The notes beneath the pieces are model-generated. The model was not told where the DNA came from. It did not search any database and worked only from the letters and a program-made list of their open reading frames with translations. Source: Escherichia phage 121Q. Taken from it: 64,000 bases of DNA. A program made the translations under genes and the position numbers. This document shows positions 37,357 through 61,258 of the stretch, in pieces (position 1 is the stretch's first letter; the number at the start of each line of letters is the position of its first letter). The DNA is taken from sequence record NC_025447.1, one strand, 5' to 3'.

Positions 37357-37364
37357 TATTTATA
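37357..37364 (-). promoter_or_regulatory. T4-type late promoter TATAAATA
   Basis: Minus strand reads TATAAATA about 36 nt upstream of the ATG at 37321. Confidence 0.45.
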
Positions 37365-37452: not shown

Positions 37453-38292
37453 ATGACAAATAGACCAAAGCGTAAAAAGTATCTCAATAATGCTGATTTA
37501 CTTCGTGAAATACAAAAAAGTAAGATTTCATACTGCTGGTTATTAGACAAATCATATAGTATGTATGATTATATTGTTTTTCATGAGTCAGAAATTACTG
37601 CTGAGTTACTTGAAAAAGCCAAAGCAGCACGAATCAAACGACTAAACAATGAAATGCTTGATAGTATTCGTGAAAAGGAAAGTATGAGTGCTAAAAAAGC
37701 TAAAGAATATGCAGATGAAAATAATTTAGTTATCACTGATGTTCCAATCGATGAAGTTGTTATTCGTGTTATCACTGATGAACATATTCCACCCGACACT
37801 AGAGTTAACTTTGAACCATTCAAGCATTACATTGTAGATAATGAAGGAATTCTCTATGAAGTATGTCGTTCTCATTGGAAAGGAGATCTTGAAACTGGTG
37901 AATTCAGTACTGTTCATGGTAAAATTACAAATGAACTAGGGAAGATGTTCATTAAACTTGCTGAGGAAATCTCTCATAAATCTAATTACAGAAACTATAC
38001 ATACTTAGATGAAATGATGGGTGATGCAAGAATACAATTAGTTAAAAACGCACTTCTCTTTAAAGAGAGCATTCTTTATAAAAAAGATAAACCAGCAGTT
38101 CAGCTAAATCCTTTCTCTTACTATACATCATTCGTAAACAATAGTTTTCGTTCTATATTGAATAGTGAGAAAAATGTTCGAAATATACGTGATGATTTAC
38201 TTGAAATGCATGGCTTTACGCCATCACATACACGTCAAATTGAAATTGAATTGAACATGATTGAAAGGAAAAATGAAGATGGCTCTGTTTGA
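37453..38292 (+). CDS. Putative late-transcription sigma factor, gp55-like
   Basis: N-terminus PKRKKYLNNADLLREIQKSK resembles my recollection of T4 gp55 (PKYNYVNNKELLQAII); adjacent to the gp47/gp46 homologs as in T4; TATAAATA motifs occur upstream of structural genes. Longer than T4 gp55, so tentative. Confidence 0.45.
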   Translation: MTNRPKRKKYLNNADLLREIQKSKISYCWLLDKSYSMYDYIVFHESEITAELLEKAKAARIKRLNNEMLDSIREKESMSAKKAKEYADENNLVITDVPIDEVVIRVITDEHIPPDTRVNFEPFKHYIVDNEGILYEVCRSHWKGDLETGEFSTVHGKITNELGKMFIKLAEEISHKSNYRNYTYLDEMMGDARIQLVKNALLFKESILYKKDKPAVQLNPFSYYTSFVNNSFRSILNSEKNVRNIRDDLLEMHGFTPSHTRQIEIELNMIERKNEDGSV

Positions 38293-46204: not shown

Positions 46205-47944
46205 ATGAGTTGGAAACGACATATGACAGTGGGAAGGTCTAAACTATCGACCATCCCAAATCAGTCCAGTAATAGCAATAAATCAACAGGAACGAAAACA
46301 AATTTCGCTTCCTATCTTCCTGTTGTATATAATGGATTGGCAAACCGTACTGAGCGTTATAGTCAGTATGAGCAAATGGACCAAGATCCTGAAATTAGAA
46401 CTGCATTGAATATAATTGCTGACTTTTGTACCCAAAGTACTGAAGATTTTGGTTTACCATATAAAATCAAATATAAAGATGATATTGGTGATACTGAAGT
46501 AACGACTATTGAAGATCGTTTAGATGCATGGACTGAACAAAATGATTTTAAAACACGAATGTATGAAATTATGCGTGGTCTTCTGAAATATGGTGATCAA
46601 TTTTTCATTCGAGATCCAGAAACATTCGATTGGTATTGGGTAAGTCCCAAAAATGTTGAGCAAGTATTTGTTAACGAAGCCACTGGTAAAACACCAGTAA
46701 TTTATTATATACGTGACGTATCATTAAATTTGAAAGATAAAGTTTTTAGTAACCTTCAAGTAGGATTTGATAAAACCGCTTATCCAGGAGCTATTCCGAC
46801 AACAATGGGTGGTGGTGGTTCAGTAGCTGCGGGTGGTGCATCTGGTTTTACAAGTCAAGGAAATACTGCTGATCCATTCAGTACTAACGGTCAATTAGAC
46901 GTTATTCCTGTTGGTGCAGAACACGTAATTCATCTAACGCTAAATACAGGACAAGATGGGGTATGGCCTTTTGGTACTAGTATACTTGAGGACGTATTTA
47001 AAGTCTATAAGCAAAAAGAACTTCTGGAAGATAGTATCATAATTTATCGTGTACAACGTGCACCTGAGCGTCGTGTATTTAAAATTGATGTTGGTGATAT
47101 GCAAGCACACCAAGCAATGGCTTATGTTGAAAGATTTAAAAATGAAATCCACCAGCGTAGAATACCTTCAAACAAAGGTGGAAGTACTTCATTAATGGAT
47201 GCAGCATATAATCCATTAAGCATTTTAGAAGACTACTTTTTCCCACAAACTTCTGAAGGTCGTGGTTCAGATGTTCAAACATTACCAGGCGGTGATAACT
47301 TAGGACAAATTGATGACTTACGTTATTTCAATAATAAATTGATTCGTGGTCTTCAAATACCAGCTTCTTATCTACCACAAGGTCCAGATGATGGTGGTGT
47401 TTCATTATTTGGTGATGGTGCTACACAAGCTATGGCAAGTGAATTGCGATTCAATAATCAATGTATGCGTTATCAACGTTTAGTTGCAAAACATTTTGAT
47501 GCTGAATTCAAAAGATTTATGGTTAAAAATGGATATAACATTAGTACTTCATCTTTTGAAGTTATTATGAATCCACCTATTAACTTAGCTTCTTATCGTA
47601 AAGCTGAACTAGATGCTAAACTAATTAATACATATCTTCCTCTTAATGACTTGCCTTATATGGCGAAACAAACAATTCTTGAAAAAATGGGCTTTTCTAA
47701 AGCTGATATTGTTAAGAATGAACAAATGTGGTTACAAGAGAATCCACAAGATGGTTCCCAACCTTCTGGTGGTGAAGAAGATTCCGCAGGATTACAGTCT
47801 GTTGGTATTGATGCTCCAAATGATCCTGGAATGGATCTTGGTATTGATGGAGAAGGTAATTTGGAAAGTGCTGATGCCGAATACCAAGAGCAACAGAGTG
47901 GAAGTGGTGGTTTCAACCCTAATAATTTAGGCAATTCTTTTTAA
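46205..47944 (+). CDS. Portal protein (T4 gp20-like)
   Basis: LEDSIIIYRVQRAPERRVFKIDVGDM...TLPGGDNLGQIDDLRYFNNKLIRGLQIP aligns with T4 gp20 [26 protein letters not shown]...[28 protein letters not shown] as recalled. Confidence 0.85.
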   Translation: MSWKRHMTVGRSKLSTIPNQSSNSNKSTGTKTNFASYLPVVYNGLANRTERYSQYEQMDQDPEIRTALNIIADFCTQSTEDFGLPYKIKYKDDIGDTEVTTIEDRLDAWTEQNDFKTRMYEIMRGLLKYGDQFFIRDPETFDWYWVSPKNVEQVFVNEATGKTPVIYYIRDVSLNLKDKVFSNLQVGFDKTAYPGAIPTTMGGGGSVAAGGASGFTSQGNTADPFSTNGQLDVIPVGAEHVIHLTLNTGQDGVWPFGTSILEDVFKVYKQKELLEDSIIIYRVQRAPERRVFKIDVGDMQAHQAMAYVERFKNEIHQRRIPSNKGGSTSLMDAAYNPLSILEDYFFPQTSEGRGSDVQTLPGGDNLGQIDDLRYFNNKLIRGLQIPASYLPQGPDDGGVSLFGDGATQAMASELRFNNQCMRYQRLVAKHFDAEFKRFMVKNGYNISTSSFEVIMNPPINLASYRKAELDAKLINTYLPLNDLPYMAKQTILEKMGFSKADIVKNEQMWLQENPQDGSQPSGGEEDSAGLQSVGIDAPNDPGMDLGIDGEGNLESADAEYQEQQSGSGGFNPNNLGNSF

Positions 47945-47965
47945 ACATAAATAACAGTGTATAAG

Positions 47966-47991
47966 AATGAGGGTTTATTTTTACCCTCATT
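47966..47991 (+). other. Perfect 9-bp stem-loop after the portal gene
   Basis: AATGAGGGT-TTATTTTT-ACCCTCATT, followed by TATAAT. Confidence 0.4.
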
Positions 47992-48245: not shown

Positions 48246-48334
48246 ATCAAAAATCGCACTTTTTAAAGCTTTTAAAAAAGGCGATTTTATTCAGTACTAA
48301 ATAATATCATACTTTATACGAATGTAATATATCT

Positions 48335-49195
48335 ATGGAGGATATAATGGCGAATTTAAAACTACTACAAGAAGCAATTGCGGCGTTTGCAAATGGCGAA
48401 CAAGATATTGCTGATAAAAAAATGCGTAAGTATTTCGTTGAGCAAGCTCAAGAAATTAACAAACAACTAGAAGAAAGCATGGAAGATGAAGACGACGATG
48501 AAGATTGTGAAGTCGAAGTTAAAGTCAAAGATGAAGAAAAGCTTGACGAAGATTTTGATGTACAACCAGACGAAGGTCTAAATGCTGAAATCGAATACAC
48601 CCTTGGTGAAGAAGATGAAAGTGCAGAAGAAGAAGTTGAATTCTCTGCTGATGCAGATGGTGACGGTGAAGACGATGTTGACGTTGAAGTGAAAGCTGAT
48701 GCTGATGTTCCTTCCGAAGACCAATGGGAATCAATCCAAGATGCTTTCCGTGGCCTACAACAAATGTTTGATGAAATCGGTGACGGTGAAGTTGATCTAG
48801 ATTCTGAAGAAGAAGTAGAAGATAGCGAAGAAGAAGTTGGCGTTGACGGTGACGACGAATTTGCTGATGTTGAATTCGGTGATGAAAAATTCGGTGAATC
48901 CTTCAAACTAGAAAAAGTTGCTCCAGTTGATAAGAAAGAAAAAGCTGGCACTCATTCCAAATCTCCAGTAGCACCAGAAGCTAAATCTCCAGTAGCAGGA
49001 GCAGAGCCAGTTAAATTCGCTAAGAAAACTGACCAAGCACCACTACTAGACCTAGATGATAAATCTGTTCTACCAAAAGATAGTCTAGATCTTGGTAAAA
49101 ATGCTCGCGGTGAAATGAAAGATGTTAAAGCACCAAAAACTACTGCATCTAATTCTAAATCACCACTAAGCAAAGCACAACCTAAACTAAAATAA
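48335..49195 (+). CDS. Highly acidic prohead core or scaffold-like protein
   Basis: 286 aa with long Asp/Glu-rich runs (EDEDDDEDCEVEVKVKDEEKLDEDFD...); GGAGGA ribosome-binding site; located between portal and protease genes. Confidence 0.5.
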   Translation: MEDIMANLKLLQEAIAAFANGEQDIADKKMRKYFVEQAQEINKQLEESMEDEDDDEDCEVEVKVKDEEKLDEDFDVQPDEGLNAEIEYTLGEEDESAEEEVEFSADADGDGEDDVDVEVKADADVPSEDQWESIQDAFRGLQQMFDEIGDGEVDLDSEEEVEDSEEEVGVDGDDEFADVEFGDEKFGESFKLEKVAPVDKKEKAGTHSKSPVAPEAKSPVAGAEPVKFAKKTDQAPLLDLDDKSVLPKDSLDLGKNARGEMKDVKAPKTTASNSKSPLSKAQPKLK

Positions 49196-49215
49196 ATATC
49201 TGAAAGGAGATCATT

Positions 49216-49839
49216 ATGAGTAGTATGATTCGTGAATGGTCTTCATTCAATGATTCTAAAGTTGTTTTGGAACATCGTGATAATGGATTTGGTGGGCGTG
49301 ACTGCTATCTTCGTGGTATTGCTATTCAAGCCGACCAACGAAATTTGAACGAGAGAATTTACCCTTTATCTGAAATTACAAGGGCAGTAAATAACATGAA
49401 CCAGCGTTTAGCTAAAGGTGAAAGCATTCTTGTTGAATGTGACCATCCAGAAACACTAACTATTAACCTAGACCGAGTAGCAGCAATGATTACTAAGGTT
49501 TGGATGGAAGGTGCTAATGGTATGGCAGAAATCAAACTACTTGATACTGCACATGGTCAAAATATCCGTAAAATGCTAGAGGCTGGTGTAAAACTTGGTG
49601 TAAGTTCTCGCGGTTCCGGTAACGTTGATTATAATGGAATAGTTTCTGATTTTGAAATTATCACTATTGATATTGTTGCTCAACCTAGTGCTCCAGAAGC
49701 ATACCCAACAGCGGTATTTGAATCTCTGATGAGTAAGTACGGATCACCTTGTAATAGTTCTAAAAAAATCACTGAATCTAAAAAAGTAAATAATTTAGAT
49801 TCTGAAATATACGATTTTTTCAAGAAATTAAAAGGTTAA
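49216..49839 (+). CDS. Prohead protease (T4 gp21-like)
   Basis: 207 aa; VECDHPE and GVSSRGSGNV segments consistent with the prohead serine protease family; position upstream of the scaffold and major capsid genes. Confidence 0.7.
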   Translation: MSSMIREWSSFNDSKVVLEHRDNGFGGRDCYLRGIAIQADQRNLNERIYPLSEITRAVNNMNQRLAKGESILVECDHPETLTINLDRVAAMITKVWMEGANGMAEIKLLDTAHGQNIRKMLEAGVKLGVSSRGSGNVDYNGIVSDFEIITIDIVAQPSAPEAYPTAVFESLMSKYGSPCNSSKKITESKKVNNLDSEIYDFFKKLKG

Positions 49840-49850
49840 CATTTTAAAAA

Positions 49851-49858
49851 TATAAATA
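49851..49858 (+). promoter_or_regulatory. T4-type late promoter TATAAATA upstream of the scaffold gene
   Basis: TATAAATA at 49851-49858, about 48 nt upstream of the ATG at 49906; overlapped by an inverted repeat at 49856-49881. Confidence 0.45.
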
Positions 49859-49905
49859 TCTGTATGTTGAAGTACAGATATTTCAGTACTTAAAGGAGAG
49901 AACGA

Positions 49906-51021
49906 ATGTCTAAATTAGAAAAGCTTCTAAAAGAATCATCTCTTTCTGATGAGGCAAAACAGCTAATTCAGGAAGCATGGAATGAAGAAAAGAATACACT
50001 AGCCGCAGAGATGCGTGAAGAAATGAAAGGCCGTTATCAGCAAGATTTGGCTGAACTAACCGAAGGTTTGAACACTATGGTTACTCAAGTCATTGCTGAA
50101 GAAATGGGTGCTGTATATGAAGAGAAAAAACGTCTCGTTGAAGATCGTGTAACTCTACGTAAAACACTAAGCAATTTCTCTGCGTTTTCAAACTCTGTTT
50201 TGGCTGAAGAAGTTAAACAAATGCGTAAAGAACGTAAGCATCTTCATGAATGCATGGGTAAATTCGTTAATTTTTCTAACGGTATCCTAGCAGAAGAGCT
50301 AAAAGAATTCCACACTGAAAAACGCCAACTAGTAGAAACTCGCGTTAAACTACTTGCTGAAGGTTCACGTCAAATTGCTGAAGCTCGTAATAACTTCATC
50401 AAACGTACATCTGAAAGTGCTGCTAAATATATTGCAGAAACCACTCAGAAGAATCTATATGCGTTGAAACAAGATCTAGTGGAAGCAAAACAAAATATGT
50501 TTGGTCGTAAAATCTTTGAAGCATTTGCTCAAGAGTTTAATGTCAAACAATTTAATGAAAACTCATTGCTACGTTCCCTAACTGAATCAATTAAATCTAA
50601 AGAAGATGAAATTGCTCAAGTTAAGCAAGAACTACATGAAACTGCTAATGCCGTTAAAGCTGCTAAAACCAAACTACGTATTATGGAAGATGCACAAGCA
50701 CGTAATGCGATTATGTCTGAACTAGTAAAACCACTAACTGCACAGCAAAAACAAATTATGGAATCCCTTCTAGCTACTTCACCTACTGAAAAGCTTAAAG
50801 AAGATTTCAGCAAGTACCATAAGTCAGTACTTAACGGTACTAAAGTAAATGAATCTGCTACCACTCGTCAAGCAGTTCAGTCTTCCGCTAAGAAAACTCT
50901 TGCAGAAGGTAAAGTAATCACTGGCAACCGTCAGGCTATTGTTGAAAGCGAAGAAATGACCGCTGACGATATGGCATTCCTAAAAGAACTAGATGTTCTT
51001 TCAGGTATCAATAAAAAATAA
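49906..51021 (+). CDS. Prohead scaffold protein (T4 gp22-like)
   Basis: 371 aa, Glu/Lys/Ala/Leu-rich and predicted alpha-helical; sits between the protease and major capsid genes. Confidence 0.6.
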   Translation: MSKLEKLLKESSLSDEAKQLIQEAWNEEKNTLAAEMREEMKGRYQQDLAELTEGLNTMVTQVIAEEMGAVYEEKKRLVEDRVTLRKTLSNFSAFSNSVLAEEVKQMRKERKHLHECMGKFVNFSNGILAEELKEFHTEKRQLVETRVKLLAEGSRQIAEARNNFIKRTSESAAKYIAETTQKNLYALKQDLVEAKQNMFGRKIFEAFAQEFNVKQFNENSLLRSLTESIKSKEDEIAQVKQELHETANAVKAAKTKLRIMEDAQARNAIMSELVKPLTAQQKQIMESLLATSPTEKLKEDFSKYHKSVLNGTKVNESATTRQAVQSSAKKTLAEGKVITGNRQAIVESEEMTADDMAFLKELDVLSGINKK

Positions 51022-51059
51022 ACATTTTAAAGCATTTTAATAATCAAATTTTTCAGTTC

Positions 51060-51067
51060 TATAAATA
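51060..51067 (+). promoter_or_regulatory. T4-type late promoter TATAAATA upstream of the major capsid gene
   Basis: TATAAATA at 51060-51067, 45 nt upstream of the ATG at 51113; the extended motif TAAATAATATCATACT recurs upstream of 48335. Confidence 0.5.
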
Positions 51068-51112
51068 ATATCATACTGAAAAACGAATATAACATCTTTA
51101 AGGAGATATATA

Positions 51113-52288
51113 ATGTCACAACTACTAAATGAATCCAAATGGGTAGCAGTAAAAGAGAAACTAGTTGAAGGTCTACAGGGTACTCGTAAGTCTGTAATGG
51201 AAACTGTTCTTGATAACCATCGTAAAGTTATGCTAACTGAATCCGCAACTTCTGGTGCAACTACCGCTGGTAACATCGCTACTCTAAACAAAGTGATTCT
51301 ACCAATTATGCGTCGTGTAATGCCAACCGTTATTGCTAACGAAATCATCGGTGTTCAACCTATGACTGGTCCAGTTGGTCAGATCCACACCCTACGTGTA
51401 CAATATGCTGATAACGCACCTGGTGTAATCGCTGGTGAAGAAATGCTTTCTCCATACAAAATCGCTAAATCTTACTCTGGTGATCTAAATGCGGATAATA
51501 GCAACCCACAAGCTGCTCCTACTAGCCAACTAGAAGGTACTATGGGTCGTCGCGTTAACATCCGTATTCTACGTGAAACTGTTGAAGCGAAATCTCGTCG
51601 TCTATCTGCACGTTGGACTGTTGAATCTGCACAAGATGCTCAATCCCAACATGGTGTTGACGTTGAAGCAGAACTAATGGCTGCAATCGCTCAAGAAGTT
51701 ACTGTAGAAATCGACCAAGAGCTACTAAGCCGTCTACGTGCACTACCTGGTGCTGCTGCTGTAACTTATGACCAATCTAAAGTTACTGGTGTTGCAACCT
51801 TCGTTGGTGATGAGCACGCTGCTCTAGCTACTCTAATTAACCGTCAAGCAAACGAAGTTGCTCGTCGTACTAAGCGTGGTGCTGCAAACTGGGCTGTTGT
51901 TTCCCCAACTGCACTAACCATTCTACAATCTGCTACTACTTCTAGCTTTGCACGTACCACTGAAGGTACTTTTGAAGCACCAACTAACGTTAAGTTTGTA
52001 GGTACTCTAAACAGCACTATGCGTATTTTCGTTGATACCTATGCTAGTGATGCAGAAGATATTCTAATTGGTTATAAAGGAAATGCGGAAACTGATGCTG
52101 GTGTATTCTATTGCCCATACATCCCACTAATGGCTTCCGGTACTGTAATGGACCCTAACACTGGGGAACTCGTTACAACTTTCTTAACCAGATACGGGTA
52201 TGTTCAGTTGACCGATAGCACCAGTTCACTAGGTAACGCTGCGGACTACTACAGCAAAATCGCTATCAAAAACGTTACTTTCATGTAA
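51113..52288 (+). CDS. Major capsid protein (T4 gp23-like)
   Basis: RVMPTVIANEIIGVQPMTGPVGQIHTLRVQY and RILRETVEAKSRRLSARWTVESAQDAQSQHGVDVEAEL align with T4 gp23 (RRAIPNLIAFDICGVQPMNSPTGQVFALRAVY; RIDKQVIEAKSRQLKAAYSIELAQDLRAVHGMDADAEL) as recalled. Confidence 0.9.
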   Translation: MSQLLNESKWVAVKEKLVEGLQGTRKSVMETVLDNHRKVMLTESATSGATTAGNIATLNKVILPIMRRVMPTVIANEIIGVQPMTGPVGQIHTLRVQYADNAPGVIAGEEMLSPYKIAKSYSGDLNADNSNPQAAPTSQLEGTMGRRVNIRILRETVEAKSRRLSARWTVESAQDAQSQHGVDVEAELMAAIAQEVTVEIDQELLSRLRALPGAAAVTYDQSKVTGVATFVGDEHAALATLINRQANEVARRTKRGAANWAVVSPTALTILQSATTSSFARTTEGTFEAPTNVKFVGTLNSTMRIFVDTYASDAEDILIGYKGNAETDAGVFYCPYIPLMASGTVMDPNTGELVTTFLTRYGYVQLTDSTSSLGNAADYYSKIAIKNVTFM

Positions 52289-52333
52289 TTGTAATAGATT
52301 TAAAAGATTTAATCAAAAAAAATAAAAACAAAA

Positions 52334-52360
52334 GGGACTCTTCGGAGTCCCTTTTCTTTT
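52334..52360 (+). terminator. Rho-independent terminator after the major capsid gene
   Basis: GGGACTC-TTCG-GAGTCCC followed by a T-run. Confidence 0.7.
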
Positions 52361-52434: not shown

Positions 52435-53532
52435 ATGCCAAACGTAAGTATCAACAAAGAAGAGTTTATCAGCAAAATGACTGCTAAGTATGGTGAATTT
52501 GATTTCAGTACTTTAGTATTCAAAGCAAGTAAAACAACTGTGAAATGTAACAAGTGTGGAAAAGAAAACATAAAATCTGCACTTCGTCACATTGCATGTA
52601 CATGTGCATCATGTTATTCAAACATGTCGCAACGTTCAAACAACGACACATTCATCAGCACGGTAGAAAATAAATTTGGTAAAGATAAATTCAAATTTGA
52701 TAAACTAAATTACACTAACGCTATAACAAAAGTAACACTCTTTTGCACTGATGAAGAGCACAACGATTACTTTGAAATAACACCAAACAAATTTCTTTCT
52801 GGTAAGGGATGTCCTGTGTGTAATAAAAATGAAGCATACAGTACTGAATCATTCACTGCAAAAGTAAAAGAAAACTATGGTGATGCATTGGATTTGACAA
52901 ATACTGTTTATGTCAATCAGAAAACTAAAGTAACGGTTCATTGCACAAAAGGACATCACGACTGGACAGTAGATCCAAAAACTTTAATCGTCGGTAAAAC
53001 TGGCTGTGGTACATGCTCTGGTAAAGGTGGACGAAGTACTGAGCGTTTCATTGAACTAGTATCACCAATTCATAACCATAAGTATGATTATAGCTTGGTG
53101 GATTATACAACAAGTGAGAAGTATGTGGATATTGTGTGTCCGACGCATGGTGTTTTTTCCCAACAACCAAAAGCACATATGGCGGGTAAAGGATGTCCAT
53201 CATGTGGTGAATATGGATATCAACCATCAAAACCTGGATATTTCTATGTTCAAAAACTAACTAACAATGACAAGACGGTGTACAAATATGGAATCACTGG
53301 TGATATGAAACGCCGTGTAAACGAACAAAGTCGTAATTCTGGGTTCGAACATGAAGTACTAGTAGAACGCTACTTTGAAGATGGAAATCAACCATTACTG
53401 TTGGAAAAGTTCATAAAGAAATACATTGAAAGTGGAGTAGTAAGTACTGAAGAGTTGCCGTCAGGATTTACTGAAACGTTTGATGAAAAGTATCTAAAAT
53501 CTGTACTGGAAATTGTAAATAACTTTAAGTAA
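52435..53532 (+). CDS. Homing-endonuclease-like protein: three zinc-ribbon repeats plus C-terminal GIY-YIG/T5orf172-like domain
   Basis: 365 aa; repeats ...CTDEEHNDYFEITPNKFLSGKGCPVC, ...CTKGHHDWTVDPKTLIVGKTGCGTC, ...CPTHGVFSQQPKAHMAGKGCPSC; C-terminal GYFYVQKLTNNDKTVYKYGITGDMKRRVNEQ. Confidence 0.5.
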   Translation: MPNVSINKEEFISKMTAKYGEFDFSTLVFKASKTTVKCNKCGKENIKSALRHIACTCASCYSNMSQRSNNDTFISTVENKFGKDKFKFDKLNYTNAITKVTLFCTDEEHNDYFEITPNKFLSGKGCPVCNKNEAYSTESFTAKVKENYGDALDLTNTVYVNQKTKVTVHCTKGHHDWTVDPKTLIVGKTGCGTCSGKGGRSTERFIELVSPIHNHKYDYSLVDYTTSEKYVDIVCPTHGVFSQQPKAHMAGKGCPSCGEYGYQPSKPGYFYVQKLTNNDKTVYKYGITGDMKRRVNEQSRNSGFEHEVLVERYFEDGNQPLLLEKFIKKYIESGVVSTEELPSGFTETFDEKYLKSVLEIVNNFK

Positions 53533-53906: not shown

Positions 53907-53927
53907 TAGATAAATATCTCCATATTA

Positions 53928-54254
53928 ATGATGGAGATTGAATCTATGTCACAGATATGTTATGTTATAATAAATTCTGCATGGCCTGAGTATGTTAAAA
54001 TTGGTTTTACTTCAAAATCAGAAATGACAGAACGTCTAAGAACGTATCAGACTGCTACACCATTTCGTGACTTTGAAGTATATCATGAAGTTCATTTTGA
54101 TGACGCACGTTTAGCTGAAAAAGAGATACATAAAAGGCTTAAACAAATGAATGCAACTAGACAACCAAACACGGAGTGGTTTAAAATGTCTAAAAAGATA
54201 GCAGCAAACATCATTGATTCTGTGTGGGATGATATGGATAACGACTTGCTATAG
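53928..54254 (+). CDS. GIY-YIG/T5orf172-like domain protein
   Basis: 108 aa; CYVIINSAWPEYVKIGFTSKSEMTERLRTYQT fits the pattern of a hydrophobic strand, then KIG-T, then a conserved Arg. Confidence 0.45.
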   Translation: MMEIESMSQICYVIINSAWPEYVKIGFTSKSEMTERLRTYQTATPFRDFEVYHEVHFDDARLAEKEIHKRLKQMNATRQPNTEWFKMSKKIAANIIDSVWDDMDNDLL

Positions 54255-61194: not shown

Positions 61195-61258
61195 TATAAA
61201 TAACGGGGAACATAGTGTTCCCCAAATTGGTTTGATTTAAAAAGTAAAGGAATACAAA

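What the first reader, a model, noticed from the sequence alone, without database searches (positions are those of the whole stretch)
49851..49881. Perfect 9-bp inverted repeat overlapping the late promoter of the scaffold gene
ATATCTGTA-TGTTGAAG-TACAGATAT begins inside the TATAAATA element and would form a hairpin in the 5' leader. It is not followed by a T-run, so it is unlikely to be a terminator. It may be an RNase processing site, a protein binding site or a translational control element.
Basis: seen in the sequence. Interest (0 to 1): 0.35.

Follow-up and report, generated by a model that had tools for sequence, protein, structure and literature searches.

The report
Conserved RNA hairpin built onto late promoter
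The inverted repeat is real and conserved in related giant phages, but because its first arm is the scaffold gene's own late promoter, the hairpin should form only in longer messages that read through from the upstream protease gene, a variation on a design already known from phage T4.

Summary
The window is an Asteriusvirus jumbo phage, 99.9% identical to PBECO4. The repeat exists and is longer than reported. It has 11 perfect pairs, or 12 with a U.G pair: AAATATCTGTAT 49854-49865 against GTACAGATATTT 49872-49883, with loop GTTGAA. It folds at -11.8 kcal/mol (z = -6.2), is unique in the window and is not terminator-like.

Seventeen distinct variants from several jumbo-phage genera keep the stem. 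The substitutions preserve pairing on the + strand (18 G.U cells, and a C-G to U.G to U-A series at one pair), and loop length varies. That pattern fits an RNA structure better than a protein operator. RaK2 and K64-1 have deleted the right arm.

The left arm is the last 5 nt of TATAAATA plus the 7 nt after it. By the T4 spacing rule, transcription starts near 49864. The scaffold promoter's own transcript therefore lacks the left arm and cannot form this hairpin. It is predicted to fold a conserved alternative hairpin instead (AAGUAC 49870-75 with GUACUU 49886-91). Only read-through RNA from the protease gene can form the reported hairpin.

This is the T4 e/soc/49/I-TevI layout, except that the Shine-Dalgarno sequence is not sequestered. 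The function is inferred: an isoform-specific element between the two genes that affects mRNA stability, processing or translation. Interest is modest.

The parts
49216..49839 (+). Prohead protease gene (gp21-like). It is the upstream cistron whose read-through RNA would carry the hairpin. Stop codon TAA is at 49837-49839.
   Evidence: ORF. Annotated as prohead core scaffolding protein and protease, or head maturation protease, in PBECO4 and relatives.
49851..49858 (+). TATAAATA, a predicted T4-type late promoter box for the scaffold gene.
   Evidence: All 7 exact TATAAATA copies in the window lie in front of an ORF with a Shine-Dalgarno sequence. The box is invariant in 13 relatives; RaK2 has CATAAATA. 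A late sigma factor homologue lies at 37453-38292. An ATAAATA motif was predicted as the late promoter in CBB and GAP32 (PMC5259590).
49864..49864 (+). Predicted transcription start (+/-1 nt) of the scaffold late promoter.
   Evidence: Inferred from the T4 rule that the box sits at the -10 position, about one helical turn upstream of the start. Not mapped in this phage.
49854..49865 (+). Left arm (L) of hairpin 1, AAATATCTGTAT. Its first 5 nt are the last 5 nt of the promoter box.
49866..49871 (+). Loop of hairpin 1 (GTTGAA). Loop length and sequence vary among relatives, from 5 to 11 nt.
49872..49883 (+). Right arm (M) of hairpin 1, GTACAGATATTT. It is absent from RaK2 and K64-1.
49870..49891 (+). 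Alternative hairpin 2: AAGUAC 49870-75 pairs with GUACUU 49886-91, plus G49877-C49884 and A49878-U49883. It shares element M with hairpin 1, so the two exclude each other. It is the predicted fold of the promoter-initiated leader.
   Evidence: It is the minimum-energy structure of the predicted late transcript in the window and in all 14 other hairpin-bearing relatives. 94.6% of cells are paired, but only one-sided changes occur. The stem is lengthened by a CAG-to-CUG change in L075 and L092.
49892..49908 (+). Shine-Dalgarno sequence AAAGGAG (GGAG at 49895-98) and the ATG of the scaffold gene (49906-08). Both lie outside hairpin 1.
   Evidence: Predicted accessibility of the Shine-Dalgarno sequence is similar in read-through and late RNA.
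49906..51021 (+). Scaffold-like gene (371 aa) between the protease and the major capsid protein.
   Evidence: Annotated as scaffolding protein in A4, 7t3 and BF. Matches PHROG 10922, function unknown.

Best explanation
The inverted repeat encodes a + strand RNA stem-loop of 12 pairs that is under selection in Asteriusvirus and related jumbo phages. Its 5' arm is the scaffold gene's own late promoter: the last 5 nt of TATAAATA plus the 7 nt after it. Two mRNA forms therefore carry different leaders. Polycistronic RNA that reads through from the protease gene contains both arms and folds hairpin 1. This sits 14 nt after the protease stop codon and 11 nt before GGAG. RNA started at the scaffold promoter begins near 49864 and lacks the 5' arm. 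The freed 3' arm then pairs with the downstream CAGUACUU to give the weaker hairpin 2 next to the Shine-Dalgarno sequence. The most likely role is post-transcriptional. Hairpin 1 would mark the boundary between the protease and scaffold cistrons on read-through RNA. It could act as a barrier to 3' exonucleases, or as a structure flanking a processing site. Either would uncouple the fate of the low-copy protease message from the high-copy scaffold message. The architecture and its conservation are shown here. The start site, the existence of read-through RNA and the effect on stability or translation are inferred.
For: The stem is real, stable and improbable by chance.

It is conserved. In an 11-sequence alignment 98.3% of cells are paired, against 22-59% when the partner is slid by 1-3 columns. 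Seven of 11 pairs vary, and five of those stay paired throughout.

A table of 17 variants shows 18 G.U cells on the + strand. One pair runs from C-G through U.G to U-A. Loops range from 5 to 11 nt, and the stem would be weaker if read on the minus strand.

Hairpin 1 is the minimum-energy structure in read-through context in all 15 hairpin-bearing sequences, and hairpin 2 is the minimum-energy structure of the predicted late transcript in all of them.

The left arm persists in RaK2, which lacks the right arm. So the left arm is held by promoter function, and the right arm evolved to match it.

Among 20 ATAAATA boxes in the window, complementarity spanning the start site is significant here (p = 0.007) and at 53910 (p = 0.047), and borderline at the capsid promoter (p = 0.09).

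The capsid promoter is bracketed by a second conserved hairpin with compensatory changes: A-U to U-A in 5 versus 5 variants, and C-G to U-A.

The window encodes a gp55-like late sigma factor. T4 provides the precedent of late promoters encoded in the 5' strand of a leader hairpin (PMC3014915).

The scan finds no sigma-70-like promoter on the + strand just upstream that could start an RNA containing the whole hairpin.
Against: No transcript ends have been mapped in this phage group, so the start site rests on the T4 rule.

Covariation is thin. Only one pair shows a change on both sides, the shuffle control is 15/500, and the relatives are closely related.

The left arm is also constrained as a promoter, which inflates apparent conservation.

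The hairpin has no U-tract and only two G-C pairs, so it is a weak barrier.

RaK2 and K64-1 do without it.

Predicted accessibility of the Shine-Dalgarno sequence hardly differs between the two RNA forms, so no clear functional output is predicted.

Hairpin 2 is not better than shuffled sequence (z = -0.5 to -1.0). Its 3' arm is also a copy of AGTACT, which is over-represented across the window, so its conservation may have another cause.
Confidence: 0.55

Rival explanations
1. T4 e/soc/49/I-TevI-type translational discrimination. Read-through RNA folds a structure that lowers scaffold translation, and only promoter-initiated RNA is translated well.
For: The geometry is the same as in T4, with the late promoter in the 5' strand of the hairpin. 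A canonical example lies in the same window at 53910-53938, where AUCUCCAU pairs with AUGGAGAU and buries GGAG. In the window's own read-through fold, an outer helix UUUUAA/UUAAAG reaches the first G of GGAG.
Against: The conserved stem ends 11 nt before GGAG. The probability that the Shine-Dalgarno sequence is unpaired is 0.56 in read-through RNA and 0.64 in late RNA in the window, and is similar across relatives. The outer helix is not predicted in GAP32, BF, Yen9-04 or 7t3. Hairpin 2 of the late RNA lies closer to the Shine-Dalgarno sequence than hairpin 1 does.
Confidence: 0.17
2. The RNA hairpin (1 or 2) is the binding site of a trans-acting protein. Candidates are the scaffold or protease protein regulating its own synthesis, a RegA-like repressor, or a phage or host RNase that recognises the stem.
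For: The structure is conserved but no cis effect on the Shine-Dalgarno sequence is predicted. CAGUACUU next to the Shine-Dalgarno sequence is nearly invariant. From my own knowledge, the P22 scaffolding protein regulates its own synthesis post-transcriptionally.
Against: No candidate protein was identified. The loop sequence is not conserved between genera. RaK2 lacks the element. For RNase III, the conserved duplex is only about 11 bp.
Confidence: 0.1
3. A DNA-level element: a palindromic operator or a cruciform that modulates the late promoter.
For: The repeat overlaps the promoter box. Watson-Crick compensatory changes fit DNA as well as RNA.
Against: The spacing between the arms varies from 5 to 11 nt. 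Many variants carry G.T-type changes, which weaken a DNA duplex and break the symmetry of the half-sites. The arms are short for cruciform extrusion.
Confidence: 0.07
4. One reading: the hairpin forms in the 5' leader of the transcript started at this promoter.
For: The hairpin lies between the promoter box and the Shine-Dalgarno sequence.
Against: Five of its 12 left-arm bases are inside the -10-like box. The rest lie at -5 to +2 by the T4 rule, so they are not transcribed from this promoter.
Confidence: 0.04
5. A chance or relict palindrome with no function, conserved only because the phages are closely related.
For: The region is AT-rich. The promoter constrains the left arm. The shuffle control is only 15/500. 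RaK2 has lost it.
Against: Right-arm substitutions across genera fall almost only at positions and types that keep pairing. Flanking intergenic bases diverge freely.
Confidence: 0.07

Closest known systems
T4 inhibitory leader hairpins of genes e (lysozyme), soc, 49 and I-TevI (PMC3014915)
   Same: A TATAAATA late promoter is encoded in the 5' strand of an RNA hairpin. Long transcripts from upstream fold the hairpin, and late transcripts start inside it and lack the 5' strand.
   Different: In T4 the 3' strand contains the Shine-Dalgarno sequence and/or AUG and blocks translation. Here the 3' strand ends 11 nt before GGAG, and no loss of accessibility is predicted. The gene lies in a late head operon rather than an early region. 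The late RNA refolds into a second conserved hairpin.
Hairpins between cistrons that give the parts of a polycistronic mRNA different stabilities (REP-type 3' stabilisers; the pap operon papB-papA junction). Recalled from my own knowledge.
   Same: A stem-loop just after a stop codon, between genes needed in very different amounts, with no U-tract.
   Different: No decay or processing data exist for this phage. The stem is AU-rich, and its left arm doubles as a promoter.
Intrinsic (Rho-independent) terminators
   Same: A hairpin 14 nt after a stop codon.
   Different: Only two G-C pairs and no run of U. The scan does not call it. The phage's real terminators, such as 52330-52355, are GC-rich with T-runs.
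T4 head-gene promoters P22 and P23
   Same: TATAAATA late promoters directly upstream of the scaffold and capsid genes.
   Different: T4 has no hairpin spanning the start site at either promoter. More distant T4-like contigs couple the protease stop directly to the next Shine-Dalgarno sequence, with no promoter between.

Membership tests
T4-type transcript-specific inhibitory leader hairpin (e, soc, 49, I-TevI) | [quoted passage not shown] | tested here: met
   The box at 49851-58 overlaps the left arm at 49854-65, and the predicted +1 is near 49864. The start site is predicted, not mapped.
T4-type transcript-specific inhibitory leader hairpin (e, soc, 49, I-TevI) | The Shine-Dalgarno sequence and/or the start codon is sequestered in the helix. 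| tested here: not met
   The right arm ends at 49883, GGAG is at 49895-98 and ATG at 49906. Accessibility of the Shine-Dalgarno sequence is 0.56 in read-through RNA and 0.64 in late RNA.
T4-type transcript-specific inhibitory leader hairpin (e, soc, 49, I-TevI) | Longer transcripts from upstream promoters run through the site. | not testable with these tools
   No terminator-like site was found between the upstream ATAAATA-like boxes (49192; 48297-48304) and the hairpin. No RNA data are available.
Intrinsic terminator | A G+C-rich stem followed directly by a run of U. | tested here: not met
   Two G-C pairs and the tail UCAGUACUU. Not reported by the scan.
RNase III processing site | About two helical turns (around 20 bp) of mostly paired RNA. 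| tested here: not met
   The conserved duplex has 10-12 pairs. The 20-pair extended fold appears only in Asteriusvirus sequences.
5'-terminal stabilising stem-loop (ompA type), considered for hairpin 2 | The stem begins within a few nucleotides of the 5' end of the transcript. | tested here: inconclusive
   Hairpin 2 begins about 6-7 nt after the predicted +1. This depends on an unmapped start site.
Known RNA families (Rfam 15) | A match to a curated covariance model. | tested here: not met
   No match at 49800-49910 even at E up to 1.
Palindromic DNA operator | Fixed spacing and conserved sequence of the two half-sites. | tested here: not met
   Spacing varies from 5 to 11 nt. The half-sites diverge asymmetrically with G.T-type changes.

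The most novel reading that the evidence does not exclude
The three elements form a switch set by promoter choice. L is the promoter and left arm, M is the right arm, and R is CAGUACUU next to the Shine-Dalgarno sequence. Read-through RNA folds L:M and promoter-initiated RNA folds M:R. A trans-acting factor, for example free scaffold protein as in P22 autoregulation, or a nuclease, would read the two states. Together with the covarying hairpin that brackets the capsid promoter, this would set the protease:scaffold:capsid ratio in RaK2-like jumbo phages.
Probability: 0.12. Interest if true: 0.55.

Novelty: new variant of a known kind. Interest (0 to 1): 0.3.

Why it matters
If correct, jumbo phages related to RaK2, GAP32 and PBECO4 reuse the T4 trick of building a late promoter into one strand of an RNA hairpin. 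Here, however, the trick sits inside the head-assembly operon and does not mask the ribosome-binding site. That would point to control of mRNA isoform fate, meaning stability or processing, rather than on/off translation. It may be one way these phages produce very different amounts of protease, scaffold and capsid protein from adjacent genes. It also gives annotators a concrete caution: a hairpin that overlaps a T4-type late promoter is not in that promoter's own leader. The finding does not open a major question.

Tried and rejected
Terminator: rejected.

Known RNA family: none found.

Dispersed repeat: rejected. The arms are single-copy in the window.

General property of late promoters: rejected. 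Only 2-3 of 20 ATAAATA boxes show complementarity spanning the start site.

Homologous structure in T4 itself: absent at P22 and P23.

Masking of the Shine-Dalgarno sequence: no meaningful difference in predicted accessibility.

A 9-codon upstream ORF starting at the predicted +1 (ATG 49864 to TAA 49891-93): rejected. The ATG is missing in ph0011, GAP32 and the others.

A third hairpin (UGUUGAAGUA/UAUUUCAGUA) is predicted only in Asteriusvirus and is not conserved.

Minus-strand terminator (the reverse strand has AUAUUUUU after the stem): disfavoured. The G.U pairs become C.A mismatches on that strand, and no minus-strand genes lie nearby.

A stricter scan of viral contigs returned only three known loci.

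The PA5oct RNA-seq paper gave no usable information on late start sites.

Full report
**Identity and context.**
The window matches Escherichia phage PBECO4 and other Asteriusvirus jumbo phages at 99.9% identity. More distant relatives, at 69-78% identity over the query, include 7t3/Munch, GAP32, CBB, BF, the Yersinia fHe-Yen9 phages, Erwinia phages, XaC1 and RaK2/K64-1.

The finding lies in the head module:
- portal gene, 46205-47944
- two small virion-protein genes
- prohead protease, 49216-49839
- scaffold-like gene, 49906-51021
- major capsid protein, 51113-52288

A gp55-like late sigma factor is encoded at 37453-38292. All seven exact TATAAATA copies in the window sit in front of an ORF with a Shine-Dalgarno sequence. 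An ATAAATA motif upstream of structural genes was predicted as the late promoter in CBB and GAP32 (PMC5259590). Reading 49851-49858 as a T4-type late promoter is therefore reasonable, though it has not been tested.

**The observation.**
The repeat is real and larger than reported. AAATATCTGTA (49854-49864) pairs perfectly with TACAGATATTT (49873-49883). T49865.G49872 adds a twelfth pair around the loop GTTGAA.
- As RNA it folds at -11.8 kcal/mol, against -2.1 +/- 1.6 for shuffles (z = -6.15).
- Perfect repeats of at least 11 bp with short loops number 5 in the window, against 0.28 in shuffles. The other four look like canonical GC-rich terminators with T-runs.
- This one is not terminator-like.
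- It matches no Rfam family.
- It is single-copy in the window.

**Conservation.**
I collected the protease-scaffold spacer from 18 GenBank relatives and from IMG/VR contigs. The hairpin is present in 17 distinct variants, and two phages lack it.
- In an 11-sequence alignment, 98.3% of cells are paired, against 22-59% when the 3' partner is slid by 1-3 columns. Seven of 11 pairs vary, and five of those remain paired throughout. One pair changes on both sides. The shuffle control is 15/500, which is only moderate support.
- A hand-aligned table of all 17 variants shows the pattern directly. Right-arm A-to-G changes occur opposite U at three positions. One pair appears as C-G, U.G and U-A in different lineages. 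There are 18 G.U cells on the + strand.
- Loops range from 5 to 11 nt, and the stem would be weaker if read as minus-strand RNA.
- Breaks occur in CBB (one mismatch), in Hallingskeid (a 2x2 internal loop), in XaC1 (one internal mismatch) and in the distant contig L024, which keeps 7 of 12 pairs.
- RaK2 and K64-1 have a 44-nt spacer in which the loop, the right arm and the downstream element are deleted. The left-arm sequence (CATAAATATTTGTAT) remains.

I infer that the left arm is held by promoter function and that the right arm has been kept complementary to it. The variable spacing and the G.U-type changes argue for a + strand RNA structure rather than a DNA operator.

**Which RNA can form it.**
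T4 late promoters place the 8-bp box at the -10 position, about one helical turn upstream of the start (PMC2988020). From my own knowledge the box spans -13 to -6. With the box ending at 49858, +1 falls at A49864, give or take one base.
- The left arm spans -10 to +2. RNA started here therefore lacks it and cannot form the hairpin.
- The scan finds no sigma-70-like promoter on the + strand just upstream. RNA that contains both arms must come from at least as far back as the protease gene. ATAAATA-like boxes lie at 49192 and 48297-48304.
- For the predicted late transcript, the minimum-energy fold in the window and in all 14 other hairpin-bearing relatives is an alternative hairpin. It reuses the right arm: AAGUAC 49870-75 pairs with GUACUU 49886-91, two to three bases before AAAGGAG.
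- This second hairpin is 94.6% paired across relatives but shows only one-sided changes. It is not better than shuffled sequence (z about -0.5 to -1.0). In two IMG/VR lineages a CAG-to-CUG change lengthens it to 8-9 pairs.

**What it does.**
The layout is that of T4 genes e, soc, 49 and I-TevI. There a late promoter is encoded in the 5' strand of a leader hairpin, so only long upstream transcripts fold it (PMC3014915). The defining T4 feature, sequestration of the Shine-Dalgarno sequence or AUG, is not met here.
- The right arm ends 11 nt before GGAG.
- The predicted probability that the Shine-Dalgarno sequence is unpaired is 0.56 in read-through RNA and 0.64 in late RNA. It is similarly close in relatives.
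- The window's own read-through fold has an outer helix that touches the Shine-Dalgarno sequence, but that helix is not predicted in the other genera.

I therefore favour a boundary element between the two cistrons that exists only on read-through RNA. It would give the low-copy protease message and the high-copy scaffold message different fates, through 3' protection or a flanked processing site. Softer translational discrimination and a protein-binding RNA are the main rivals. This functional step is inference.

**Supporting context in the same window.**
A test for complementarity spanning the predicted start site was run over all 20 ATAAATA boxes. It singles out this site (p = 0.007), 53910 (p = 0.047) and, at the borderline, the capsid promoter (p = 0.09). 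The feature is therefore gene-specific and not a general property of late promoters.
- **Capsid promoter.** TTTTTCAGT (51049-57) and ACUGAAAAA (51075-83) bracket the box at 51060-67. One pair is A-U in five variants and U-A in five. Another switches from C-G to U-A. RaK2 keeps this hairpin.
- **Site 53910.** The hairpin AUCUCCAU/AUGGAGAU starts at the last base of the box and buries GGAG. The ORF behind it looks to me like a T5orf172 or GIY-YIG-type gene; I did not run a domain search on it. This is a textbook T4-type arrangement.
- **T4 and distant relatives.** T4's own P22 and P23 promoters have no such hairpins. More distant T4-like contigs couple the protease stop directly to the next Shine-Dalgarno sequence.

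**Verdict.**
It is wrong about which transcript carries the hairpin. I class this as a new variant of a known T4-type design. The functional output is unproven and the interest is modest.

Noticed in passing
window, whole (e.g. 49885-49890, 48293-48298): The palindrome AGTACT occurs 118 times in 64 kb, against about 22 expected from base composition. CAGTACT occurs 56 times on the + strand and 51 on the minus strand, against about 4 expected on each. AGTACT is the top 6-mer by Markov(4) z-score (6.75). It is enriched 4-8 fold in GAP32, BF, 7t3-like, Kaldavass-like and RaK2 loci but not in the more distant T4-like contigs I checked. Most copies lie inside genes in all three frames; frame 0 (Ser-Thr) accounts for 64 of 108. 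I found no explanation in the literature.
   Followed up: partly
window 51049-51083: The hairpin TTTTTCAGT/ACTGAAAAA brackets the capsid gene's late promoter box (51060-67), so it too can form only in read-through RNA. It shows compensatory changes across relatives (A-U to U-A in 5 versus 5 variants; C-G to U-A) and is kept in RaK2.
   Followed up: partly
window 53910-53948: An ATAAATA box is followed by the hairpin ATCTCCAT (53916-23) / ATGGAGAT (53931-38), which buries the GGAG in front of ATG 53946. The ORF, about 102 aa, looks to me like a T5orf172 or GIY-YIG-type gene; no domain search was run. This is a canonical T4 I-TevI/e-type arrangement in which the ribosome-binding site is sequestered in long transcripts.
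   Followed up: partly
window 52435-53532: A 365-aa ORF sits directly after the capsid gene's terminator. It matches PHROG endonuclease and HNH endonuclease families, so it is likely a free-standing homing endonuclease.
   Followed up: no
window 61195-61223: A TATAAATA box is followed 2 nt later by the GC-rich hairpin GGGGAACA-TAG-TGTTCCCC. The predicted start falls inside its left arm.
   Followed up: no
window 47947-47991 and 48250-48288: Other junctions in the head module also pair a late-promoter-like box with a hairpin. CATAAATA is followed by AATGAGGGT/ACCCTCATT, which starts near the predicted +1. The terminator-like hairpin AAAATCGC...GCGATTTT precedes an ACTAAATAATATCATAC box that resembles the capsid promoter. 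RaK2 has the second hairpin with different stem bases.
   Followed up: partly
window 49192-49204: ATAAATATCTG, the same 11 bases as at the scaffold promoter, lies immediately before the protease Shine-Dalgarno sequence. A start by the T4 rule would leave almost no leader.
   Followed up: no
window 37453-38292: A late-transcription sigma factor homologue (PHROG 12791 and 234), preceded by a divergent TATAAATA box at 37364 on the minus strand.
   Followed up: no
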